A stretch of DNA of 64,000 nt. It comes from Minisyncoccota bacterium (GTDB lineage: Bacteria > Patescibacteriota > Minisyncoccia > Phycocordibacterales > CAJBRS01). The translations under genes were made by a program, and so were the position numbers. Of the stretch, positions 4,859 through 45,018 are shown in pieces. Location of the stretch: positions 64,682 through 128,681 of the forward strand of contig JADGRH010000003.1 in assembly GCA_017881075.1 (NCBI GenBank). The letters run 5' to 3'. The first letter of the stretch is position 1. Each line of letters opens with the position of its first letter. The notes under the pieces are model-generated. The model saw only the letters and a list, made by a program, of their open reading frames with translations. It was not told the origin of the DNA and searched no databases.

Positions 4859-6139
4859 ATGAGTATACGTTTCGTTATCTCAGTTATGTTGGTTGGCCTT
4901 TACATGGCCATATCAATCCTGTATCCAGTAGCCCAAGGCCCGATCGAAGGAAAGATCGCGGCCAGTATGGTCCAAGATAGTGATGCGTCTTATGCAGCGG
5001 CTCACGCCCTGCTCACGACGCATTCGCCGATAACCATTATCGGTTGGGCAGTGTTCATAGCATTGCTCGTCATCTGGGTGCCAGTTTTACGGCGCGCCCT
5101 CAAGCGCCCCACTAAAACGGCAGCGACATTTCTCGGGTGTATCGCCTTTTTGGCGACCATTCTCACCACGGGATGTGTGGGACCTTATAAGGTAGAGAAG
5201 TTCGAGACCATCGAATCAAACGAGACGGCCTTCGTCGTTCCCTTGGAGGGTGCGACGCTCGCCAATCAAGCGAAGTTCATGTCTATCGACTATCTCAATT
5301 CGCCTGAAGTGAAAGTGGCGACCAAGCGGATCACTATTCCGCAACGGCAACGCGACACAGGACGGGTGGCCGGTAATTACGAATGGATTGACACCGTTCG
5401 CGTCATCAAGGTAAACCGGGCGCCTATCACCAGACAGTGGGTGAAGGCCTCAACACAAGGCACTTCTAAATCCGACGAGGCCATCGAGGTGGAGTCTAAA
5501 GAGTCAATCGACTTCTACACCGGAGCGGTCTGCAGCGGGTTTATCGCTGAAGAGGATGCGGCAAGGTTCCTCTATTATTTCGCCGGGAAACCTTTAAGCG
5601 AAGTGATGGACGAGAACGTACGCGGGTATGTTCAAAACCTGATGTGGGTGGAGTTTGGTACGCGGGACTTGACCGCTGCCAAAGAGGCCAAGAAAGAGAT
5701 CATGGATGCGGTTTCCAAATCGACGAAGGAGTTCTACTCCAAGCAAGGGATAACGATCTCTTACGTCGGTGGAGCTGAAGGTCTGACCTACAAGGATCCA
5801 AAGATCCAAGAATCCATCAACTCGGCCTTCATCGCCGAGAATGACCGCAAAGTGGCGGATCAGGAGAATCAGGCCCAAACGATTAGGAATACCAAATTGG
5901 TTTCCATCGCTACAGCACAGCGTCAGGCGGCTGAAGAGTTCGCCAAAGCGCAGAATGCCATGATTGCCAAGACCCAGCTCGAGATCCAAATGAAGCAGGC
6001 AGACGCCATGCTGGAGATCGCGCATAACTCGCACGGCATCAGCATCCAACCGGGTGCGATCTTGTCTGAAGGGTCGCCCTTCCTGTTTGGCCTGGATAAG
6101 GTCACGGGAGCTCGGCCGCCGGTCACTGCAAATAAGTAA
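4859..6139 (+). CDS. membrane-anchored SPFH/band-7-like protein (inferred), GC-rich
   Basis: N-terminal TM segments; C-terminal Ala/Gln/Glu-rich coiled coil resembling HflC/K tails; visibly higher GC than the backbone; SD AGGAGA upstream. Confidence 0.45.
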   Translation: MSIRFVISVMLVGLYMAISILYPVAQGPIEGKIAASMVQDSDASYAAAHALLTTHSPITIIGWAVFIALLVIWVPVLRRALKRPTKTAATFLGCIAFLATILTTGCVGPYKVEKFETIESNETAFVVPLEGATLANQAKFMSIDYLNSPEVKVATKRITIPQRQRDTGRVAGNYEWIDTVRVIKVNRAPITRQWVKASTQGTSKSDEAIEVESKESIDFYTGAVCSGFIAEEDAARFLYYFAGKPLSEVMDENVRGYVQNLMWVEFGTRDLTAAKEAKKEIMDAVSKSTKEFYSKQGITISYVGGAEGLTYKDPKIQESINSAFIAENDRKVADQENQAQTIRNTKLVSIATAQRQAAEEFAKAQNAMIAKTQLEIQMKQADAMLEIAHNSHGISIQPGAILSEGSPFLFGLDKVTGARPPVTANK

Positions 6140-21715: not shown

Positions 21716-22811
21716 TTCTTGGAAAAAACTATCTGATTGGTATTGGCGATATGAGCGACATCTCTCCTCGCTCGGTCTTATTGGTGGTTTCCTTTTTGAT
21801 ATTTTTACTTTGACCAGAATAGATCACGCTCTGGAAAATATTTGGGTGGGATTCCATCTATTGGTGGCGGCCTTCGGAATCTTAATGCTTAATCTTTATG
21901 AAGAAGGGAAGTTAAAAGCGAAAGTGCCGGGGCGTGCACATTTTTGGTGGACTTTTGTCATTCAATTTGCTTTCGGAGGATTATTCAGTGTCTTTTTAGT
22001 TTTTTATTCCCGAAGTACTTCCTTTTTCGCCAGCTGGCCATTTCTTTTACTACTGGCTCTGAATTTCCTGGCCAATGAACGCCTGCGCAAGCATTATGTT
22101 CGCACCGGTTTTCAAATGGCAATGCTTTTTCTCGGCATCTTCTTTTACGATATCTACATTGTGCCTATCATCTTCAAATCAATCTCGTCGGGAATCTTTA
22201 TTATCAGCGGCGTGGTCAGCTTGATGATAATGGGAATTTTTATTTTTATTCTTTCTCTGCTTACACCCAATCGGATCTGGAAAGAAAAATGGATATTGGT
22301 CTGGAGTATCGGCGGATCCTTCCTTCTGATCAATCTTTTATATTTCACCCATCTTATTCCACCCATCCCGCTCTCGCTAAAAGAGGCGGGGGTTTATCAT
22401 TTAGTTTCTAAGGATGCTAGCGGAACGGGCTACAATGTTTTAGAAGAATATCAGAACGGCCAGTCTTGGTTCCACTATTTTCTGCCGGCGGACACTATTC
22501 ATTTAGTGGTAGGCCAGCCAGCTTATGTCTATAGCGCCGTCTTTGCTCCTACCAATTTTGCTACTTCCATTGTGCACCGATGGCAATATTACTCCGATAC
22601 GGAAAAGAAATGGCAGACGGTAAGCCTTATTCCGCTCACAATTATCGGAGGCCGTGACGGGGGTTTCCGAACCTTTTCGTTAAAGACTAATCTCGCTCCA
22701 GGCAAATGGAGGGTGAGTGTGGAAACTACGACGGGGCAGGTGATAGGCCGGCTCGACTTTTTGGTCGAGCCGGCCGAATTTACCCCGCTCTTGAGGGAAG
22801 TGGCTAGATAG
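21681..22811 (+). CDS. membrane protein with C-terminal extracytoplasmic domain
   Basis: 376 aa, 6-7 TM segments then a soluble domain. Confidence 0.45.
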   Translation: MISWRWPGSMSNSWKKLSDWYWRYERHLSSLGLIGGFLFDIFTLTRIDHALENIWVGFHLLVAAFGILMLNLYEEGKLKAKVPGRAHFWWTFVIQFAFGGLFSVFLVFYSRSTSFFASWPFLLLLALNFLANERLRKHYVRTGFQMAMLFLGIFFYDIYIVPIIFKSISSGIFIISGVVSLMIMGIFIFILSLLTPNRIWKEKWILVWSIGGSFLLINLLYFTHLIPPIPLSLKEAGVYHLVSKDASGTGYNVLEEYQNGQSWFHYFLPADTIHLVVGQPAYVYSAVFAPTNFATSIVHRWQYYSDTEKKWQTVSLIPLTIIGGRDGGFRTFSLKTNLAPGKWRVSVETTTGQVIGRLDFLVEPAEFTPLLREVAR

Positions 22812-30009: not shown

Positions 30010-30061
30010 GAGTCATTAAACGGACTTGTCTTATTTAAAAAATTTTATATAATAGACTCTT

Positions 30062-30453
30062 CTTGAATCGGGTAATTGCTCCGCCACCTAAAAAGGGCGG
30101 GGAGGAAAGTCCGAACACAGGCCCTTCACCAAAATTGGTGAAGGGAAGAGTAGCGGGTAATACCCGTCTGGAGCAATCCACGAGGTGCGAACAGAGACGA
30201 ACCGGTTAAGTCCGGGTGAAACGGCTAAATCCTTACTTCTGTGCAAGGCCGCGCGCCAATTTTGTCCGCTAGAGGCGGTTACAAAATTGAGCGTCCCGAG
30301 ATTTTCGAGGGATTGATCCTTCGACAAGCTCAGGGCACTCAATCTTGCAGCCACCTGCAGTGGGCAAGATTGGTGAGTGCCGCTTGACTCCGAGAGTAAT
30401 CGAGGAGCTAGATAAATAATTATCGATAACAGAATTCGGCTTATAGATTCAAG
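30062..30453 (+). ncRNA. rnpB: RNase P RNA (bacterial type A)
   Basis: P4 GGAGGAAAGTCCG.ACACAGG and 3' ACAGAATTCGGCTTAT conserved blocks; P1 pairing CTTGAATC/GATTCAAG; the minus-strand ORF 30088..30504 is spurious. Confidence 0.85.
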
Positions 30454-30464
30454 AAGACAAATCA

Positions 30465-30494
30465 AAAGCCTCCGCCTAACGGCGGAGGCTTTTG
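30465..30494 (+). terminator. terminator hairpin after rnpB
   Basis: AAAGCCTCCGCC taac GGCGGAGGCTTT. Confidence 0.6.
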
Positions 30495-30497
30495 CTA

Positions 30498-30590
30498 TTT
30501 GCATCGTCTTTTCAAGATGTTATAATAAATGAAAGCTAATGAAAGAATTTGCATCGTCTTTTCAAAATGTTATAATAAATGAAAGCTAAT
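30498..30590 (+). promoter_or_regulatory. tandemly duplicated (~50 bp x2) promoter segment carrying an extended -10 TGTTATAAT
   Basis: TTTGCATCGTCTTTTCAA[G/A]ATGTTATAATAAATGAAAGCTAATG occurs twice with one mismatch; the second copy ends at the ATG of 30589. Confidence 0.55.
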
Positions 30591-34757: not shown

Positions 34758-36584
34758 ATGGACTTGGAAAGAATCAGAAATTTCAGTATCATTGCTCATA
34801 TTGACCACGGAAAATCGACGCTGGCGGACCGTATGCTGGAGATCACTCATACTATAGAAAAGCGCAAAATGATGGATCAGGTGCTGGATAATATGGAGCT
34901 TGAGCGGGAGAAGGGAATCACCATCAAGATGCGGCCGGTGAGGATGATTTACACCACCTCCAACCCCCTCCTTGATCAAAGAGGGGGCACATCCTACATC
35001 TTAAATCTTATTGACACCCCCGGCCACATCGATTTCTCCTACGAAGTGTCGCGGGCCCTGAAAGCCGTGGAGGGCTCTATTTTGCTCGTAGATGCCACAC
35101 AGGGCGTCCAGGCGCAGACCCTTACAACCTTAGGCATGGCTCGCGACCTTGGCCTTACCATCATCCCAGTGCTCTCAAAAGTGGATTCACCACTGGCTCG
35201 AATTAAGGAGGTAAAAGAGGAAGTGTCGCGACTATTAGATTGTCTACAGGAAAGCATTTTAGAGACTTCCGGTAAAACAGGTCAAGGGGTTGACAACTTA
35301 CTTCAGGAAATCATTCGAAGAGTGCCGCCACCTCACGAATTATTGAAGTCAGACTTCGATAAATCTAATTTTCGTGCTCTAGTTTTCGATTTCCAGTACT
35401 CAAATCATAAGGGGGTAATTGTTTACGTGCGAGTTTTGGATGGACAGGTGGCTAAGAATGCCGAGCTTTTATTTACTGTGGCGAAAGAAAAGTTTTTTGC
35501 ACTAGAAGTGGGGATTTTTAAGCCGGAAGAGTCGCCGGCGGCGGTCTTAGCCGCCGGCGAGATTGGCTATATTGTCACCGGCATTAAAAAGCCAGGCATT
35601 GCTTCGGTTGGAGACACTGTCACTCTTCTGAAAAAACCACTGCCGGCTCTTTCTGGTTACGAGCGACCAGCTCCGGTGGTTTGGGCATCAATTTATCCAG
35701 AAGATGCTGATGATTTTGATTTGCTTCGACAGGCGCTTGGGCGTCTTCGCCTGTCGGACTCCTCCTTTTCATATGAAGAGGAATCATCAGGCTCGCTGGG
35801 CCGCGGCTTTAGATGCGGTTTTCTTGGACTGTTGCATCTTGAAATTATCACGGAGCGATTGAAGCGAGAATTTCGTTTGCAACTAATTATCGCTACCCCT
35901 TCTATTACCTATGAGGTGACGTATAAGAATGGGAAGAAGGCGATTGTTTATTCACCATCATTATTTCCCGAACAGAACGAAGTGGAAAGCGTCTTGGAAC
36001 CGTGGATGAAGCTACAAATCCTTACCCCATCATTATATTTAGGGAAACTATCCCAGCTTCTCTATGACCACGAAGGAGAAATGGATCATTCAGAAACATT
36101 TGGTGATGGCAGAACTTCGCTCTCTGTTAAGATTCCGCTTCGGGAACTGATGCGGAACTTTTTCGATGAGTTAAAAAGCGTTTCTTCCGGCTTCGCCTCA
36201 CTCTCATACGAATTTGAAAGTATGCGTCCGGCCGAAGTGGTGCGGCTGGATATTTTGGTAGCAGATGAGCCGGTGGAGGCTTTTACCAGAGTGGTATCGG
36301 TGAGGAGAGTACAGGAAGAGGCGGAGAAAGCGGTGGAAAAACTCCACTCCATTTTGCCTCGACAAATGTTTGTAACTAAGATTCAAGGAAAGGCCCTTGG
36401 CAGAATTCTCTCATCTGCAACCCTATCAGCTATGAAGAAAGATGTTACCCAGCACATGTATGGAGGAGATATCACTCGAAAGATGAAGCTGCGGGAAAAA
36501 CAAAAAAAAGGAAAGAAAAAAATGAAGGCGCGCGGCAAGGTCAATATTCCGCACGAGACGTTTTTGAAGATGATGAAAAGCTAG
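34758..36584 (+). CDS. lepA: elongation factor 4 (LepA)
   Basis: NFSIIAHIDHGKSTLADR, DTPGHIDF, LepA-specific C-terminal domain, Lys-rich tail; contains the in-frame palindrome at 34964..34987. Confidence 0.85.
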   Translation: MDLERIRNFSIIAHIDHGKSTLADRMLEITHTIEKRKMMDQVLDNMELEREKGITIKMRPVRMIYTTSNPLLDQRGGTSYILNLIDTPGHIDFSYEVSRALKAVEGSILLVDATQGVQAQTLTTLGMARDLGLTIIPVLSKVDSPLARIKEVKEEVSRLLDCLQESILETSGKTGQGVDNLLQEIIRRVPPPHELLKSDFDKSNFRALVFDFQYSNHKGVIVYVRVLDGQVAKNAELLFTVAKEKFFALEVGIFKPEESPAAVLAAGEIGYIVTGIKKPGIASVGDTVTLLKKPLPALSGYERPAPVVWASIYPEDADDFDLLRQALGRLRLSDSSFSYEEESSGSLGRGFRCGFLGLLHLEIITERLKREFRLQLIIATPSITYEVTYKNGKKAIVYSPSLFPEQNEVESVLEPWMKLQILTPSLYLGKLSQLLYDHEGEMDHSETFGDGRTSLSVKIPLRELMRNFFDELKSVSSGFASLSYEFESMRPAEVVRLDILVADEPVEAFTRVVSVRRVQEEAEKAVEKLHSILPRQMFVTKIQGKALGRILSSATLSAMKKDVTQHMYGGDITRKMKLREKQKKGKKKMKARGKVNIPHETFLKMMKS

Positions 36585-36843: not shown

Positions 36844-37230
36844 ATGAGAGAATTTCAAGAAAGAAAAAGACTAAAAAGGCTCATCTACTCTAAACCAGTC
36901 CTAATTTTCCTATTTATCTTACTGGTCTTAGTGATTGACGGGACATGGAAAATCTACCAGAAAGAAAGGGAGAGCCGAGCCAATCTGGCGCGAGTGGAAA
37001 ATCAGCTAACGACTTTAAAAGAAAGAAGCGGCAATCTTTCGTCTGACGTGACTAGGTTAAAAACGGAGCAGGGAATGGAAGAGGAGATTCGCAGTAAATA
37101 TGAGGTTTCAAAACCTGGGGAACAGCTCCTAGTCATTGTGGATAAAGATGCGGCGGCGACTACGTCGCCGCCGCAGAACCTCTGGGAGCACTGGTGGTCC
37201 AGTTTTACCAATCTTTTTAAGCGGAATTAG
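36844..37230 (+). CDS. FtsB/DivIC-like septum formation initiator (inferred)
   Basis: single N-terminal TM then coiled coil; 128 aa. Confidence 0.35.
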   Translation: MREFQERKRLKRLIYSKPVLIFLFILLVLVIDGTWKIYQKERESRANLARVENQLTTLKERSGNLSSDVTRLKTEQGMEEEIRSKYEVSKPGEQLLVIVDKDAAATTSPPQNLWEHWWSSFTNLFKRN

Positions 37231-38778: not shown

Positions 38779-39678
38779 ATGAATGAAATTCTTATAACTA
38801 AAGCTTCTAAAGATTACGAGCTTATTGATAGTGGAAAAGGGGAGAAACTGGAACGATACGGTCAGTTTGTTTTGCGTCGGCCGGATCCGCAGGCTCTTTG
38901 GCCTAGATTTTTAAATAAGGAAGTTTGGGAAAAGGCCGACGCCATTTTCGCCCCGCCTCGGGCGGGACAGGGTGGCGTCGGCAAACCGAGTTGGACATTA
39001 AAATCCGGCATTCCTAATAGCTGGCAGATTAATTTTGGCGGATTGAAATTTGTAATTAAACTGACAGCTTTCAAGCATACCGGTCTTTTTCCGGAGCAAC
39101 TGTCTAATTGGGAATGGATTGAGGAAAGAGTAAGGGCGGCCGCCGGAGGCACAGGCGGCCGCCAGTTGTCTATTCTCAATCTCTTCGGTTACACAGGCGG
39201 TGCAAGCCTCGCTGTCGCCAAAGCTGGTGCCTCTGTCACCCACGTGGATGGCTCTAAAAGCGCCATAACTTGGGCTAAAGGGAACGCCGAGGCCTCCGGC
39301 CTCGGCTCCGCCCCCATCCGCTGGATTCTCGACGATTGCCGCAAATTTCTAGAACGAGAGATAAAAAGAGGTAATCACTACGACGGCGTTATCATGGATC
39401 CGCCCGCCTTCGGCCATGGGCCAAATAAGGAGCTGTGGAAGATAGAGGACCATTTTTTAAAACTTTTAGAACTATCTTTTCAAGTTCTTTCGCTGAATCC
39501 CGCTTTCTTTTTGATTAACGGTTATGCTTCTGGATACTCGGCAGTAGCTTATGAAAATAATTTGAAAGTACTCGTAGATAAATTCGGCGGCAAAATTGAA
39601 AAAGGGGAACTCACCATCATGGAATCCACTGGTAAGCGCCTCTTACCTTGTGGCATTTTTGCCAGATGGGCTGATTAA
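38779..39678 (+). CDS. class I SAM-dependent RNA methyltransferase (RlmI/RlmK-like)
   Basis: NLFGYTGGASLAVAKAGA (motif I), VIMDPPAFG (motif IV), N-terminal PUA-like region. Confidence 0.55.
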   Translation: MNEILITKASKDYELIDSGKGEKLERYGQFVLRRPDPQALWPRFLNKEVWEKADAIFAPPRAGQGGVGKPSWTLKSGIPNSWQINFGGLKFVIKLTAFKHTGLFPEQLSNWEWIEERVRAAAGGTGGRQLSILNLFGYTGGASLAVAKAGASVTHVDGSKSAITWAKGNAEASGLGSAPIRWILDDCRKFLEREIKRGNHYDGVIMDPPAFGHGPNKELWKIEDHFLKLLELSFQVLSLNPAFFLINGYASGYSAVAYENNLKVLVDKFGGKIEKGELTIMESTGKRLLPCGIFARWAD

Positions 39679-41296: not shown

Positions 41297-43343
41297 CCAT
41301 TAATAAACCCGACTCCTGATTCGGAACGAGTGACCAAATCTCTTCGGTGATGAATGGCATGAAGGGGTGAAGCAGTTTCAGAATGATATTTAAAGTATAA
41401 CCCAAAACTTGAGCAGTCGTTTCGGTGTCTTGTGTCTTAGAATACTCAATATATTTATCAGCGAAATCATGCCAAATAAAATCATACAGGTCGTGAGAGG
41501 CTTTACCGAACTGGTAAGTTTCAATATTCTGACTAACGAAAGCCCCGACCTCGTCCAATCGGGTCAAAAGTTCATGATCTTCGTCACTACTAATATTACC
41601 GGGTAATTTGACACCGATTTTGTCACCAGTCTTTTCTAAAACATAGCGACTGATATTCCAAAGCTTGTTGCTGAACTTCTTTCCCATAGCAATATTATCT
41701 TCGCTGAATCGGATCTCTTGTCCACCGAATTCCTGGTAGATCAGTCCAAAACGAACGGCGTCGGCCCCATACTTATCAATGAAAGTTACTGGATCAAGCC
41801 CAGTGCCGAGAGATTTACTCATTCTTTTACCGTCCTTAGTCAGAATGGTGGCGTGGATAAGCGCATCTTTAAAAGGTTTCTCGTTCATGAATTCCAGACC
41901 GGAGAAAATCATTCGAGACATCCACAAATGCATGATATCTCGAGCTGAAGTAACAAAGGCCGTTGGATAAAAAGTGTCTAAATCCTTTGTTTTCTCTGGC
42001 CAACCTAAAGCGGCAAAAGGCCAGAGAGCGGCGGAAAACCAGGTATCAAAAGTATCCTCACTCCCTTCAATTGGAATTTTATGACCCCACCAAATCTGTC
42101 GGGAAATACACCAGTCTCTAACGTTTCCAAGCCAATCAAGCGCTACTCCTTTCCATCTATCGGGATAATAATTAACCTCGCTGGATTCAATGGCCTTAAT
42201 GGCTTTTTCGGCGAGTGGTTTCATTTTCAAAAACCATTGTTTGGAGAGCAGGGGTTCGATAGTGGATCTGCAGCGGTAACATTTTGCCACGTTGTGAGTG
42301 AAATCTTCCTCTTTCTCTATCAGATTTAATCTTCTTAATTCATCTAGGATTTTTTCTCGAGCGGCGGCGATTTTAAGCCCATCGAAATCGCCGCCGATAT
42401 TTATAATCTTTCCGATCTCGTCAACGACTTTGTGATAGGGAAGTTTATTTTGATCAGCCACCTGACTGTCAAAATAATCGTGAGCCGGAGTGATTTTCAC
42501 CGCGCCGGTGCCGAATTCTTTATCAATCAATCTGTCGGTAATAATTGGAATCTTTCTATTAAGGATCGGCAAAACTGCCGTTTTGCCGATCATTTTTTTA
42601 TATCGTTCGTCATTCGGATTGACTGCGACAGCGCTGTCACCAAGCATTGTTTCCGGCCGAGTAGTGGCGACGGTAATAAATTCAACGGAATCTTCAATCG
42701 GATATTTAATATAGTAAAGTTTTGATTTCTCCTCCTGATATTCCAATTCCAGATCAGATAGGGCCGTTTGGTCTTTAATACACCAATTAATCACACGCTC
42801 TCCTTGATATATTAAACCCTTCTCGTGATAATGATTGAAAGCGGTTTTAACCGCCTGCTGATATTTCTCGTCCATGGTAAATCGGAGCCGTGACCAATCA
42901 AGAGAACAGCCCAATGATTTTAGTTGTTCTAGAATAGTACTGCCGTATTTTTCTCTCCATTCCCAAATTTTCTCAATAAATTTTTCTTTACCGAGATCAT
43001 GACGAGTCAGCCCCTGTTTTTTCAGATCTTTTTCCACAACATTTTGAGTGGCAATGCCAGCGTGGTCGGTGCCAGGGACCCACAATGTTTTGAAACCGCG
43101 CATGCGGTGATATCGTATTAAGACGTCAGAGACGGTATTCTCCAGCGCGTGACCCATGTGGAGCGAGCCGGTAATGTTGGGGGGAGCGATCATGATGGTG
43201 TAGGGCTTCTTTCGCTCGCCCGGCAGGTTATCCGGATTAAAAAAACCGCTCTTTTCCCAGAGCGAATAGATGCGGGACTCAGTGTCCTTTGGATCGTAAG
43301 GTTTAAGCAGTTTTTCGGGAGTCATTGGGATAAATATTAACAT
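41271..43343 (-). CDS. valS: valyl-tRNA synthetase (short form lacking C-terminal coiled coil)
   Basis: PPNITGSLHMGHA, KMSKSLGTG, ValRS editing/CP1 region; 690 aa. Confidence 0.8.
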   Translation of the reverse strand: MLIFIPMTPEKLLKPYDPKDTESRIYSLWEKSGFFNPDNLPGERKKPYTIMIAPPNITGSLHMGHALENTVSDVLIRYHRMRGFKTLWVPGTDHAGIATQNVVEKDLKKQGLTRHDLGKEKFIEKIWEWREKYGSTILEQLKSLGCSLDWSRLRFTMDEKYQQAVKTAFNHYHEKGLIYQGERVINWCIKDQTALSDLELEYQEEKSKLYYIKYPIEDSVEFITVATTRPETMLGDSAVAVNPNDERYKKMIGKTAVLPILNRKIPIITDRLIDKEFGTGAVKITPAHDYFDSQVADQNKLPYHKVVDEIGKIINIGGDFDGLKIAAAREKILDELRRLNLIEKEEDFTHNVAKCYRCRSTIEPLLSKQWFLKMKPLAEKAIKAIESSEVNYYPDRWKGVALDWLGNVRDWCISRQIWWGHKIPIEGSEDTFDTWFSAALWPFAALGWPEKTKDLDTFYPTAFVTSARDIMHLWMSRMIFSGLEFMNEKPFKDALIHATILTKDGKRMSKSLGTGLDPVTFIDKYGADAVRFGLIYQEFGGQEIRFSEDNIAMGKKFSNKLWNISRYVLEKTGDKIGVKLPGNISSDEDHELLTRLDEVGAFVSQNIETYQFGKASHDLYDFIWHDFADKYIEYSKTQDTETTAQVLGYTLNIILKLLHPFMPFITEEIWSLVPNQESGLLMVAKWPVST

Positions 43344-43539: not shown

Positions 43540-44793
43540 TTATTTTAAGGCTAGATTTCCATTAGCTCCGAAATCGGATTTCGGGTTTTTGTCACTTAAA
43601 TAATTGAAATAACCAGCCATGGCGATCATAATGGCGTTGTCGGTGGAGAGGTGGGAGTCGGGAATTAGGAGTTGGGTGTCAGGAGAAGCAGCGATTAAAT
43701 CTTGAAAGGAGCGGCGGAGGTGGGTATTGGCGATTACACCTCCGCCGACTATTAGAGTTTTAATATCAAATTCTTCAATGGCTCGTTTGGTTTTGGTAAT
43801 CAATACTTCAGTGACCGAATCTTCAAATTCTCTGGCCATTTTTGCTTTCCATTCTGGATCTGATTTTTCTTTGTCGGTCATTTTTTTAATTGTGTAAAGG
43901 ACGGCAGTTTTCAATCCGGAAAAAGAGAAATCGTAATCGTTTGATTTGATCATTGGTCTGGGCAAAACAAAGTTGCAGAGGTTTGACCTCTGCAAGTGAT
44001 CTGCAGAGGTCAGACCTCTGCAACGCTCTAAATCGGCCAATTTTGAGATTTCAGGCCCGCCAGGGTAGGGAAGATCCAGCATTCTAGCCACCTTATCAAA
44101 AGCTTCTCCAACCGCGTCATCACGAGTTTGACCAATGATTTTGTATTTTTTCCATGCTTCAATTAAGACTAGCTCAGTATGGCCACCGCTAATGAGAAGT
44201 GCTAAAGCTGGAAAAGAAAAGCTGACAGTTGGTAACTGATAGCTTTCAGCTTTAGATTTTTTTGGTAATAAAGCTGACATAATGTGTCCTTCCATGTGAT
44301 TAGTAGGAATGACAGGCAGATCCCAAACGAATCCCAACGCCTTGGCAAAATTAATACCGACCCAAAGTGCTGGCTCAAGACCGGGGCCGGTGGTGACGGC
44401 AATGGCTTCAATATCCGGCTTAGGAATTGTCGGAATAAATTTAAGAAATTGTTCGAGTAATTCAGGCTCGCGTTCTAGGATCTTTTTCAAACCCCCTCCA
44501 ACTCCCCCTTGTCTAAGGGGGAGAGGAAGCCCCCCCTCCTCAAACGAGGAGGGGGTAGGGGGTGGTGTTGAACCCAATTTATCTAATAACTCTTTTAACA
44601 ACGGAATCAGATTTCTAGAATGCTCTCTCTTCGCCATCATCGGATACACTCCGCCATATTTTTCATGAATTTTAGTCTGGGAATTAAGCGCTTCAGCAAT
44701 CACTTTAAATTGAGGTCGCTCAAAACCGCCATTGGATTCCACGATAGCGAGCGCTGTTTCATCACAGCTAGTTTCAATACCTAGGATTTTCAT
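43540..44793 (-). CDS. tsaD: tRNA N6-adenosine threonylcarbamoyltransferase TsaD with two in-frame repeat-derived insertions
   Basis: MKILGIETSCDETA, HMEGH, GGVAN-type, DFSFSGLKTA motifs; 417 aa vs ~340 typical; see findings for the insertions. Confidence 0.8.
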   Translation of the reverse strand: MKILGIETSCDETALAIVESNGGFERPQFKVIAEALNSQTKIHEKYGGVYPMMAKREHSRNLIPLLKELLDKLGSTPPPTPSSFEEGGLPLPLRQGGVGGGLKKILEREPELLEQFLKFIPTIPKPDIEAIAVTTGPGLEPALWVGINFAKALGFVWDLPVIPTNHMEGHIMSALLPKKSKAESYQLPTVSFSFPALALLISGGHTELVLIEAWKKYKIIGQTRDDAVGEAFDKVARMLDLPYPGGPEISKLADLERCRGLTSADHLQRSNLCNFVLPRPMIKSNDYDFSFSGLKTAVLYTIKKMTDKEKSDPEWKAKMAREFEDSVTEVLITKTKRAIEEFDIKTLIVGGGVIANTHLRRSFQDLIAASPDTQLLIPDSHLSTDNAIMIAMAGYFNYLSDKNPKSDFGANGNLALK

Positions 44794-44816: not shown

Positions 44817-44893
44817 TGGTGGGCGATAGAGGACTCGAACCTCTGGCATCAACAACGTCAATGTTGCGCTCTACCAGCTGAGCTAATCGCCCG
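44817..44893 (-). tRNA. tRNA-Val (anticodon GAC), CCA encoded
   Basis: revcomp GGGCGATTAGCTCAGCTGGTAGAGC .. CAACA-TTGACGT-TGTTG .. GGTTCGAGTCC .. CCACCA. Confidence 0.8.
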
Positions 44894-44930: not shown

Positions 44931-45018
44931 GCGGAGGAGAGAGGATTTGAACCTCTGATGCGGTTTCCCACATGCCGGTTTTCGAAACCGGTGCCTTCAA
45001 CCACTCAGCCACTCCTCC
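44931..45018 (-). tRNA. tRNA-Ser (anticodon CGA), type II
   Basis: revcomp GGAGGAGTGGCTGAGTGGTTGAAGGC .. CCGGT-TTCGAAA-ACCGG; long variable arm; GGTTCAAATCC. Confidence 0.75.

What the first reader, a model, noticed from the sequence alone, without database searches (positions are those of the whole stretch)
43973..44023. Tandem pair of hairpin palindromes inserted in-frame inside tsaD
Positions 43973..44023 read TTGCAGAGGTTTGACCTCTGCAA-GTGATC-TGCAGAGGTCAGACCTCTGCA, two adjacent self-complementary ~22-bp hairpins. They lie within the coding strand of tsaD and translate in frame to ..LERCRGLTSADHLQRSNLCNFV... That segment sits exactly where canonical TsaD has a short loop (E. coli ..SKMAAQGTAGRFVFPRPM.. 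versus ..SKLADLERCRGLTSADHLQRSNLCNFVLPRPM.. here), about 14-17 extra residues. The behaviour resembles Rickettsia palindromic elements (RPEs), which colonise ORFs without breaking them, and has not been described for this kind of genome as far as I know.
Basis: partly seen in the sequence, partly recalled or inferred. Interest (0 to 1): 0.8.

Follow-up and report, generated by a model that had tools for sequence, protein, structure and literature searches.

The report
Mobile palindrome pair inside tsaD gene
A 51-base pair of small DNA palindromes sits in frame in a surface loop of the essential tRNA-modification gene tsaD. It belongs to a repeat family (REP elements with their own tyrosine transposase) that is widespread in ultra-small "CPR" bacteria, so this is a known kind of selfish DNA found in a lineage where the papers I searched do not describe it.

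Summary
Window 43972-44024 holds two perfect 21-nt palindromes, TGCAGAGGT-NNN-ACCTCTGCA, 7 nt apart. They lie in frame in tsaD (minus strand) and encode CRGLTSADHLQRSNLCN.

The closest orthologue (66% identity) is syntenic and lacks the segment. The AlphaFold model is disordered there.

The same 21-mer is multi-copy in at least eight Patescibacteria/CPR genomes, each with its own loop variant. It is mostly intergenic, but it also lies in frame inside UvrC, IleRS, NifS, a Mur ligase, a P-type ATPase and an oxidoreductase subunit.

In four genomes it directly flanks a gene for an HUH/Tyr "Y1" transposase. The best structural match of that protein is the E. coli REP-associated transposase, 4ER8. 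Starting instead from the transposase, 37 of 76 metagenomic relatives carry their own similar palindrome on both sides.

The element is therefore a REP doublet (REPIN-like) of a CPR REP/RAYT family, tolerated in a permissive TsaD loop. Other CPR TsaDs carry unrelated palindromes in the same loop.

In-frame intragenic REP dimers are already known in other phyla (PMC3733652), so this is a new member of a known kind.

Not shown: other copies or a RAYT gene in this organism's own genome. The 64-kb window has neither.

The parts
43972..44024 (.). Whole element: a REP doublet (REPIN-like). The arms are 23 nt, 96% complementary, with 7 nt between them. The 51 nt at 43973-44023 form 17 in-frame codons of tsaD.
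   Evidence: (I1)
43974..43994 (.). REP unit 1, TGCAGAGGT-TTG-ACCTCTGCA. The mRNA strand reads (T)TGCAGAGGTCAAACCTCTGCA(A) and encodes LQRSNLC.
   Evidence: (I10); the same unit with a TTG loop occurs 5 times in L043
43995..44001 (.). 7-nt spacer AGTGATC between the two units. It encodes part of D-H.
   Evidence: Doublets with spacers of 2-15 nt occur in other CPR genomes. This exact spacer context was not found in JGI metagenomes.
44002..44022 (.). REP unit 2, TGCAGAGGTC-A-GACCTCTGCA, a perfect 10+1+10 palindrome. The mRNA strand encodes CRGLTSA.
   Evidence: I11. It is identical to copies in the Kaiserbacteria and Taylorbacteria MAGs, including copies next to RAYT genes.
43540..44793 (-). 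Host gene tsaD (tRNA t6A37 threonylcarbamoyltransferase subunit), 417 aa, intact. The REP-encoded residues are 258-274.
   Evidence: (Pfam TsaD)
44502..44555 (.). Second, unrelated in-frame hairpin pair in the same gene: CTCCCCCTTgtctAAGGGGGAG and CCCCCTCCTCaaacGAGGAGGGGG. It encodes part of STPPPTPSSFEEGGLPLPLRQGGVGGG in variable region 1, where model pLDDT is below 50.
   Evidence: (I13)

Best explanation
The segment is a doublet of REP (repetitive extragenic palindrome) units in inverted orientation, that is, a REPIN-like element. It belongs to a REP family carried by Patescibacteria/CPR bacteria together with a cognate HUH/Tyr Y1 transposase (RAYT).

Proposed mechanism (inferred). The RAYT recognises the hairpin on single-stranded DNA and cuts and rejoins it, as IS200/IS605-type enzymes do, which leaves no target-site duplication. 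One such event placed the doublet in tsaD.

The insertion survived for three reasons. (a) It landed in a surface loop between the GGPxISKLA helix and the LPRPM motif, a loop that tolerates length changes. (b) It adds 51 nt, a multiple of three. (c) The palindrome has no stop codon in the two frames used: CRGLTSA in frame 1 and LQRSNLC in frame 3. Frame 2 of the CTG-loop unit would read GTC-TGA.

The protein therefore carries a 17-residue, probably disordered, REP-encoded excursion, and the mRNA carries a strong hairpin.

Shown: the anatomy, absence from orthologues, the multi-copy family in other CPR genomes, in-frame copies in other genes, and the REP-RAYT gene architecture. Inferred: that a RAYT moved it, when it moved, and that TsaD remains functional.
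For: 1. Insertion. The syntenic orthologue P0003 (tsaD-valS-PrsW-HSP20...) and P0002 lack the segment. After the invariant R257 they have 10 aa before LPRPM, whereas the window has 19 aa, 17 of them palindrome-encoded. E. coli has a 14-aa gap at this point.

2. Repeat family. The 21-mer with a 3-nt loop occurs 94 times in the fetched pieces of 14 CPR assemblies. Each genome has its own loop signature: JAYELF 57 copies with TAG/CTA, CAVYCR 7 with CAG/CTG, JAUHXF 6 and CAIKAN 7 with CGG/CCG. That pattern indicates amplification within genomes.

3. RAYT link. L042 785-1501 is a Y1_Tnp gene with hairpin arrays on both sides. In L028 the hairpins lie 3 nt upstream of the gene and across its stop codon. 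L056 has hairpins on both sides and L113 has them upstream. All five proteins pass the Pfam Y1_Tnp gathering score. The HUH motif (NHFHLLL) and the Tyr motif (AYIHxNP) are conserved. The best PDB fold match of the modelled protein is 4ER8, the E. coli RAYT bound to a REP hairpin.

4. Reverse test. Of 80 metagenomic relatives of the RAYT, 76 had both flanks available, and 37 of those carry one and the same perfect palindrome on both sides. These palindromes share the architecture N4-6-RAGGY-N-RCCTY-N4-6.

5. Same behaviour elsewhere. In-frame copies lie inside Pfam domain envelopes of a RumA-like methyltransferase, a Mur ligase, UvrC, NifS/IscS, a P-type ATPase and an oxidoreductase alpha subunit (3 copies, including a doublet). 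By eye, one also lies in IleRS.

6. Permissive loop. Model pLDDT is below 50 only at residues 79-89, 180-188 and 262-272, while the rest is a normal TsaD fold (TM 0.92 normalised to 4WQ5). Other CPR TsaDs carry unrelated palindromes in the same loop. P0017 has a doublet of CTTGGGAGTTgAACTCCCAAG (-53.5 kcal/mol), and P0089 and P0012 carry others.

7. No direct repeat flanks the element (GAGCGT|...|CTTTGT), as expected for Y1 transposition.

8. It is not an assembly artefact. A second assembly gives the same sequence.
Against: The 64-kb window has no second copy of the module, no degenerate copy and no RAYT homologue. The rest of the 198-kb contig and genome could not be read.

No closer relative than 66% identity exists in the protein collection, so no empty-site allele was seen and the event cannot be dated. 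The length balance (+9 aa rather than +17 against the nearest orthologues) requires an accompanying loss of about 8 loop residues, or a shorter ancestral loop.

The exact doublet with its spacer was not found in JGI metagenomes, so there is no evidence that the doublet replicates as a unit.

The RAYT-like proteins score far below the NCBIfam equivalog cut-off for REP_Tyr_transpos (16-39 bits against 80).

The canonical REP tag GTAG is unpaired in classical REPs. Here GCAG (GYAG) is part of the stem.

Transposition activity was not tested.
Confidence: 0.8

Rival explanations
1. The segment is a lineage-specific protein loop that evolved in place, and its palindromic DNA is a coincidence or a by-product of local template-switch mutation.
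For: The loop is hypervariable in length and sequence among CPR TsaDs. No second copy exists in the 64-kb window.
Against: Two perfect 10-bp stems are expected 0.01 times by chance. The identical 21-mer is a dispersed, multi-copy repeat in at least 14 other CPR assemblies and flanks RAYT genes. The nearest orthologues show no trace of it.
Confidence: 0.03
2. The segment is an assembly or library artefact, such as a hairpin adaptor or a chimeric junction, placed inside tsaD.
For: The source is a metagenome-assembled genome, and palindromes can arise from chimeric reads.
Against: An independent Logan assembly of SRR10489828 gives the identical gene. The insert is exactly in frame, with conserved flanks. 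The same motif occurs in MAGs from many studies and assemblers (SPAdes, MEGAHIT, long-read contigs), at gene-specific sites, and next to a dedicated transposase gene. It is nearly absent from 2.9 million viral contigs, with 1 hit, so it is not a general contaminant.
Confidence: 0.02
3. The segment is a REP-family sequence, but it was not placed by a resident RAYT. It could have arrived by recombination or gene conversion with imported DNA, or it could be an old relic in a genome that has lost the system. A variant of this reading is that it is mobilised by a different, non-Y1 enzyme, like a MITE.
For: There is no RAYT and no other copy in 64 kb. The same core occurs across distantly related CPR classes whose RAYTs are only 27-49% identical, which could reflect horizontal spread.
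Against: Both stems are perfect, which argues against an old, decaying relic in a coding region. There is no target-site duplication and there are no separate terminal inverted repeats as in DDE-type MITEs. The tight REP-RAYT architecture in four genomes, and at family level (37 of 76), makes the Y1 enzyme the obvious mobiliser.
Confidence: 0.12
4. The hairpin has been co-opted and is kept for a function of its own. Possibilities include a translational pause or mRNA-stability element in tsaD, a DNA-binding or topological site, or a useful extra loop on TsaD.
For: The structure is very stable (-48.8 kcal/mol, z = -7.85). The stems are perfect despite being coding. The same TsaD loop carries strong palindromes in other CPR lineages. 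PMC3733652 hypothesises roles for REPs in DNA supercoiling, transcription termination and mRNA stabilisation.
Against: The nearest orthologues lack it. The palindromes in other lineages are unrelated in sequence, which fits repeated neutral colonisation of a permissive site. The peptide is modelled as disordered.
Confidence: 0.1

Closest known systems
REP / REPIN elements with REP-associated tyrosine transposases (RAYT, TnpA-REP; 'REPtrons'), as in E. coli, Pseudomonas and Stenotrophomonas (PMC3116915, PMC3733652, PMC3479197)
   Same: The unit is a 21-nt palindrome. There are many dispersed copies per genome with genome-specific variants. Doublets in inverted orientation form a long hairpin. 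A Y1 HUH transposase gene is flanked by the cognate palindromes, and its best fold match is 4ER8. Copies are mostly extragenic, with a minority in frame inside genes. There is no target-site duplication.
   Different: The host lineage is Patescibacteria/CPR. I found no paper describing REP/RAYT there, although JGI already auto-labels some of these proteins as RAYT. The palindrome is fully symmetrical, and the GYAG tag (GCAG, or GTAG in L028) is inside the stem rather than an unpaired 5' tail. The proteins are about 220-230 aa and fall far below the NCBIfam RAYT equivalog cut-off. In at least 13 loci the cognate palindrome also sits in frame inside the RAYT gene itself.
Intragenic REPs (GTAG and CGTC families) of Opitutus terrae, Thauera, Xanthomonas and Rickettsia conorii (Di Nocera et al. 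2013, PMC3733652)
   Same: Single units and dimers are inserted in frame in genes of known function. Dimers encode about 20-30 aa. Insertions are seen by alignment to shorter homologues.
   Different: The repeat sequence family and the phylum differ. Here the host gene is tsaD, and the same loop is hit independently by other palindromes in related lineages.
Rickettsia palindromic elements (RPE)
   Same: Palindromic selfish DNA that colonises ORFs in frame at surface-exposed positions without destroying the protein.
   Different: From my own knowledge, RPE-1-type elements are about 100-150 bp. PMC3733652 finds that R. conorii RPE sequences end in the tetranucleotide CGTC and that CGTC repeats have no associated transposase. 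RPEs are restricted to Rickettsia and share no sequence with this element. This element is 21 nt per unit and is linked to a RAYT.
IS200/IS605 transposons (IS608, ISDra2)
   Same: The Y1 HUH transposase fold is shared (Foldseek hits to 2XM3, 2XMA and 2A6M). Ends are recognised as sub-terminal DNA hairpins on single strands, and no target duplication is made.
   Different: In IS200/IS605 the hairpins are the two different ends of one autonomous element. Here a short palindrome is dispersed on its own in many copies.

Membership tests
REP / REPIN | Short (about 20-40 nt) palindromic unit able to form a stem-loop | tested here: met
   There are two 21-nt units with 9-10 bp perfect stems. The folds are far more stable than shuffles.
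REP / REPIN | Many dispersed copies within one genome | tested here: inconclusive
   Met in other CPR genomes: 57 copies in 85 kb of JAYELF, and 5-7 each in CAVYCR, JAUHXF, CAIKAN and CAZBQU.
REP / REPIN | Cognate RAYT gene flanked by the repeats (REPtron) | tested here: inconclusive
   Met in L042, L028, L056 and L113, which come from four MAGs. Met at family level, where 37 of 76 RAYT loci have the same palindrome on both sides. No RAYT is present in the window.
REP / REPIN | Terminal GTAG (GYAG) tetranucleotide at one end, not base-paired (PMC3733652) | tested here: inconclusive
   The unit begins T-GCAG (GYAG, a degeneracy listed in PMC3733652). RAYT-flanking copies in L028 read TGTAGAGG (GTAG). 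However, the tetranucleotide is part of the stem and occurs on both strands.
REP / REPIN | REPIN: two REPs in inverted orientation separated by a short spacer, folding into one long hairpin | tested here: met
   The arms are 23 nt, 96% complementary, with a 7-nt spacer (I1). The minimum-energy fold is a single long hairpin. Replication of the doublet as a unit was not shown, because the exact spacer context is absent from JGI metagenomes.
RAYT (the associated protein in other CPR genomes) | HUH motif plus catalytic Tyr; Y1_Tnp domain | tested here: met
   All five proteins pass Pfam PF01797 at 25-39 bits against a cut-off of 23. NHFH and Y-I-H-x-N-P are conserved. A profile aligns the HUH and Tyr positions with ISDra2 TnpA.
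RAYT (the associated protein in other CPR genomes) | NCBIfam equivalog NF047646 (REP_Tyr_transpos) score at or above cut-off | tested here: not met
   It is the best NCBIfam hit, but at 16-39 bits against a cut-off of 80. These are distant relatives, not equivalogs of the proteobacterial RAYT.
RAYT (the associated protein in other CPR genomes) | Fold of TnpA-REP | tested here: met
   The AF2 model of P0121 has pLDDT 92. The top PDB hit is 4ER8_A (E 1.3e-5, TM 0.62 normalised to target), ahead of the IS200/IS605 TnpAs.
Rickettsia palindromic elements (RPE) | Membership of the Rickettsia-specific RPE sequence families (about 100-150 bp, or short CGTC-tagged units) | tested here: not met
   The unit is 21 nt, tagged GCAG/GTAG rather than CGTC, and found in CPR genomes. 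Only the in-frame colonising behaviour is shared.
DDE-type MITE | Terminal inverted repeats bounded by a target-site duplication | tested here: not met
   No direct repeat flanks 43972-44024, and the element is nothing but the two palindromes.
TsaD / Kae1 / Qri7 (host protein) | Conserved family motifs and fold retained despite the insert | tested here: met
   The precomputed Pfam hit is TsaD. All invariant columns of the 26-sequence alignment are present, including HMEGH and the DNA/GGV motifs. The model matches 4WQ5/4YDU with TM 0.90-0.92 normalised to target. Activity was not tested.

The most novel reading that the evidence does not exclude
CPR/Patescibacteria may carry a large radiation of REP-RAYT systems that has not been formally described. 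Their perfectly symmetrical 21-25-nt palindromes do two unusual things. (a) They sit in frame inside the RAYT's own coding sequence at one conserved position, 17-25 aa before the HUH motif, and co-vary with the flanking copies. That would point to an obligatory cis element or autoregulatory site rather than random insertion. (b) They repeatedly colonise permissive loops of essential housekeeping proteins. The TsaD loop has been hit independently by at least four different palindromes. REP insertion would then be a real contributor to the many lineage-specific protein insertions of CPR genomes. The tsaD doublet would be one visible instance.
Probability: 0.4. Interest if true: 0.65.

Novelty: new member of a known kind. 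Interest (0 to 1): 0.5.

Why it matters
For annotation, these REP-encoded segments (CRGxTSA, LQRS[DN]LC, AEV[RK]PLQ) inflate and diversify CPR proteins. They can be mistaken for lineage-specific functional loops or for assembly errors.

For mobile-element biology, the finding extends REP/RAYT systems, which have been studied almost only in Proteobacteria, to ultra-small episymbiotic bacteria with genomes of about 1 Mb. In such genomes selfish DNA is expected to be scarce.

It also shows that an essential single-copy gene, tsaD, tolerates a 17-residue insert and a -49 kcal/mol mRNA hairpin.

The per-genome loop variants and the very uniform architecture make this family a convenient system for studying how a RAYT and its hairpin co-evolve.

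Tried and rejected
1. Other copies in the window. Pattern searches with up to 3 mismatches, half-site searches and a scan for all perfect hairpins found only this doublet. An 11-nt core, AGGTCTGACCT, at 5779 lies inside a membrane-protein ORF, but its flanks do not match the REP, so I treated it as chance.

2. RAYT in the window. A tblastn search with the L042 protein gave no hit.

3. Walking out of the window into the 198-kb source contig. Two ORF products were not on record, one more look-up also failed, and the Logan contigs that were found (8.4 and 3.7 kb) lie within the window.

4. Exact doublet plus spacer in JGI metagenomes: 0 hits.

5. A phage origin: only 1 hit in IMG/VR, and with a different loop.

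6. Rfam: nothing at the element. The RNase P RNA at 30060-30459 explains the hairpins there.

7. A single-sequence PDB search with a RAYT-like protein gave only noise. The profile search and the fold search were needed.

8. CRISPR was considered for the hairpin arrays of MAG117 and rejected. The units are 2-30 nt apart, often abutting, and they flank a Y1 transposase gene.

9. The 4-nt-loop matches in the Rubrobacteraceae and Actinomycetota MAGs (flanked by gcgatt/aatcgc), the matches in the Myxococcales MAG, and the singletons in unrelated bacteria were set aside as other repeat families, terminators or chance matches.

10. P0041 DNA could not be fetched.
Full report
**1. The observation**

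Window 43972-44024 reads GT TGCAGAGGTTTGACCTCTGCA AGTGATC TGCAGAGGTCAGACCTCTGCA AC. Each 21-mer is a perfect hairpin with a 9-10 bp stem. With the flanks, the two units form a 23-nt-arm inverted repeat that is 96% complementary.

The pattern is expected 0.01 times in a shuffled window. It lies in a 417-aa ORF on the minus strand, 43540-44793. That ORF is TsaD by homology, by Pfam and by fold.

On the mRNA strand the 51 nt at 43973-44023 are 17 in-frame codons, CRGLTSADHLQRSNLCN. Folded as RNA, the region gives one long hairpin of -48.8 kcal/mol (z = -7.85).

A Logan assembly of run SRR10489828 carries the identical gene, so an assembly artefact is unlikely.

**2. Is it an insertion?**

The nearest TsaDs in a collection of 5.8 billion proteins are only 65-66% identical. 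One of them, P0003, lies in a locus syntenic with the window: tsaD-valS-PrsW-HSP20-...-methyltransferase-glutaredoxin-DivIC-LepA.

P0002 and P0003 both have 10 residues between the invariant Arg (R257) and LPRPM, and no palindrome. The window has 19 residues there, 17 of them palindrome-encoded. E. coli TsaD shows a 14-residue gap at this point.

The net gain against the nearest orthologues is therefore +9, not +17. Either about 8 loop residues were lost or the ancestral loop was short. Removing the 51 nt leaves ..DLER-FVLPRPM. No empty-site allele is available.

In the AlphaFold model (mean pLDDT 86), confidence falls below 50 only at residues 79-89, 180-188 and 262-272. The rest superposes on E. 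coli TsaD with TM 0.92 normalised to the target. The insert is an excursion from an otherwise normal fold.

**3. Is the module found elsewhere?**

It is not found elsewhere in the 64-kb window.

Matches with a 3-nt loop are concentrated in Patescibacteria/CPR MAGs. I counted 94 copies in the fetched pieces of 14 assemblies. These include Saccharibacteria, Kaiserbacteria, Taylorbacteria, Paceibacterota, Campbellbacteria and several unnamed bins.

Each genome has its own loop variant, which is the signature of amplification within genomes:

| Assembly | Copies in fetched pieces | Loop variants |
|---|---|---|
| JAYELF | 57 | mainly TAG/CTA (51 of 57) |
| CAZBQU | 5 | TAG/CTA |
| CAVYCR | 7 | CAG/CTG |
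| JARIGY | 2 | CAG/CTG |
| JAUHXF | 6 | CGG/CCG |
| CAIKAN | 7 | CGG/CCG |

The window's units have CAG and TTG loops. Doublets with spacers of 2-15 nt, and longer arrays, are common.

Singletons in unrelated bacteria look like ordinary terminators or chance matches. The 4-nt-loop matches in Rubrobacteraceae, other Actinomycetota and Myxococcales MAGs sit in different flanking contexts. The motif is nearly absent from 2.9 million viral contigs, with 1 hit.

**4. What moves it?**

In MAG117, L042 785-1501 encodes a protein that matches Pfam Y1_Tnp (IS200-like), and hairpin arrays lie on both sides of the gene.

A tblastn search found relatives of this protein next to the hairpin in other loci:
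- L028 (Taylorbacteria): the hairpins lie 3 nt upstream of the gene and across its stop codon, and here they are the GTAG variant TGTAGAGGTCAGACCTCTACA.
- L056 (Kaiserbacteria): hairpins on both sides.
- L113: hairpins upstream.
- L037 and L089: the gene is present but about 4 kb from the hairpin.

All five proteins tested pass the Pfam gathering score. HUH (NHFHLLL) and Y-I-H-x-N-P are conserved. Their best NCBIfam hit is REP_Tyr_transpos, but far below its cut-off.

A profile aligns the HUH and Tyr positions with ISDra2 TnpA. An AF2 model of P0121 (pLDDT 92) has 4ER8, the E. coli RAYT bound to a REP hairpin, as its best PDB match, followed by IS200/IS605 transposases.

Homologues carry names from Candidatus Adlerbacteria, Campbellbacteria and Lloydbacteria. 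JGI labels some of them "REP-associated tyrosine transposase".

I then ran the test in the other direction, starting from the protein. At least 530 relatives exist in JGI metagenomes, and 80 loci were kept. None carries the window's exact sequence. However, in 37 of the 76 loci where both flanks are available, one and the same perfect palindrome lies upstream and downstream of the gene. Each RAYT has its own sequence, and all share the layout N4-6-RAGGY-N1-3-RCCTY-N4-6. Examples are TGATTGAGGTCcGACCTCAATCA and TGTCAAGGTTgAACCTTGACA.

The window's unit is one cognate variant of a large CPR REPtron family.

**5. Does the family enter genes elsewhere?**

About 90% of the copies are in short open stretches. 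The exceptions lie in frame inside Pfam domain envelopes of conserved proteins:

| Locus | Host protein | REP-encoded peptide |
|---|---|---|
| L001 | RumA-like methyltransferase | AEVRPLQ |
| L057 | Mur ligase | AEVKPLQ |
| L070 | UvrC | AEVRPLQ |
| L095 | NifS/IscS | LQRSDLC |
| L096 | P-type ATPase | AEVRPLQ |
| L108 | 2-oxoacid:ferredoxin oxidoreductase alpha | three copies, including a doublet |
| L092 | IleRS (identified by eye) | AEVKPLQ |

All three reading frames are used. The only closed frames are those where the loop creates TGA, TAG or TAA.

The same TsaD loop carries unrelated palindromes in other CPR lineages:
- P0017 has a doublet of CTTGGGAGTTgAACTCCCAAG with a 16-nt spacer (-53.5 kcal/mol).
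- P0089 has a 38-nt palindrome (-44 kcal/mol for the folded loop).
- P0012 has GC-rich hairpins.

The loop is a permissive site that has been hit repeatedly.

**6. Mechanism**

The best explanation is a REP doublet (REPIN-like) that a RAYT inserted by single-strand cut-and-join. No target duplication flanks the element, which is consistent with Y1 enzymes.

It was retained because it is 3n long, has no stop codon in the frames used, and sits in a disordered surface loop.

The steps shown and the steps inferred are separated in the Best explanation section. The main gap is that neither other copies nor a RAYT were seen in this organism's own DNA.

**7. Comparison with known systems, and novelty**

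REPs, REPINs and RAYTs are well known (PMC3116915, PMC3479197).

Di Nocera et al. (PMC3733652) already reported intragenic, in-frame REP singletons and dimers encoding 20-30 aa in several phyla. In the same framework they find that R. conorii RPE sequences end in CGTC, a repeat type with no associated transposase.

RPE membership fails on size, tag and lineage. Only the behaviour is shared.

Full-text searches found no paper linking REP/RAYT/REPIN with Patescibacteria or CPR, and the HUH phylogenomic survey does not mention these phyla.

The tsaD element is therefore a new member of a known kind. It is interesting mainly as an entry point to a CPR-wide REPtron family and to palindrome-driven protein insertions in these reduced genomes.

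Noticed in passing
L042 963-983; L123 1662; L133 1646; L135 1202; L136 511; L152 1668; L157 1680; L158 1650; L164 718; L169 1658; L180 1670; L183 (+180 nt from the RAYT match start); L200 569: In 13 divergent RAYT genes (12 of the 80 metagenomic loci, plus L042) the RAYT's own cognate palindrome also lies in frame inside the RAYT ORF. The position is equivalent in all of them: 137-180 nt from the start. In the 12 loci whose ORFs were translated (L183 was not), it lies 17-25 aa before the HUH motif. Its sequence co-varies with the copies that flank the gene. I did not find this described in the REP/RAYT papers I read. It could be a cis-regulatory or recognition site, or an insertion hotspot.
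   Followed up: partly
window 44502-44555 (tsaD residues ~75-101); also L118 428, 468, 781 and L095 5206, 5289: A second, unrelated pair of in-frame hairpins lies in the same tsaD. They have polypyrimidine/polypurine arms: CCCCCTCCTCaaacGAGGAGGGGG and CTCCCCCTTgtctAAGGGGGAG. They encode a Pro/Gly-rich, low-confidence segment. Similar CCCCCT..AGGGGG hairpins sit in frame in another CPR TsaD and in a NifS, which suggests another family of gene-colonising palindromes.
   Followed up: partly
L119 3747-3804 (P0017 TsaD), L120 3756-3793 (P0089 TsaD), L118 (P0012 TsaD): The same TsaD loop in other CPR lineages carries different strong palindromes. One is a doublet of 21-nt units with the same architecture as the window's (CTTGGGAGTTgAACTCCCAAG twice, 16-nt spacer). 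The loop appears to be a recurrent landing site.
   Followed up: partly
window 42564-42591 (inside valS, minus strand): A perfect 12-bp-stem palindrome, GATCGGCAAAACtgccGTTTTGCCGATC, lies inside valS and encodes MIGKTAVLPIL. About 0.02 such hairpins are expected by chance in 64 kb (my estimate). The motif search I used did not locate the equivalent region in three orthologous valS genes, so conservation was not assessed.
   Followed up: no
window 22746-22775, 35532-35560, 37149-37175, 39286-39306: Several further perfect GC-rich hairpins (9-12 bp stems) lie inside, or at the 3' ends of, long ORFs. Some may be terminators that overlap ORF ends. They were not examined.
   Followed up: no
L028 3397-3417 and L056 1965-1985: The downstream flanking palindrome overlaps the end of the RAYT ORF. 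Its loop supplies the stop codon (..GAGGTC-TGA), so the last residues (..VEV*, ..AEV*) are palindrome-encoded.
   Followed up: no
L040 6047, L061 3220, L070 3777, L078 990 (Saccharibacteria MAG CAZBQU): In this genome the 21-mer is followed by a conserved tail, AAAACTGGGGATAA. The repeated unit there is at least 35 nt, and in UvrC it encodes HAEVRPLQKLGIT.
   Followed up: no
L014, L023, L026, L027, L029 and others (Rubrobacteraceae MAG CAWJAM; Actinomycetota JBKPOM); L018, L019: The same 9-nt arms with a 4-nt loop form a different high-copy repeat in actinobacterial MAGs. It is embedded in a longer palindrome (gcgatt...aatcgc) next to ctgaagtg repeats. In two other actinobacterial records the hairpin is bracketed by TGTGGATAAC/GTTATCCACA. 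No RAYT homologue was detected in those loci by tblastn.
   Followed up: no
window 30060-30459: The RNase P RNA (class A, 113 bits) accounts for the hairpins at 30122 and 30463. It also shows that the 138-aa ORF at 30088-30504 on the minus strand is spurious. tRNA genes lie immediately upstream of tsaD, at 44820-44892 and 44932-45018.
   Followed up: yes
window 5779-5789: The 11-nt REP core AGGTCTGACCT occurs once more, inside a 426-aa membrane-protein ORF (encoding ..GAEGLTY..). Its flanks do not match the REP. It is probably chance, and less likely a decayed copy.
   Followed up: partly
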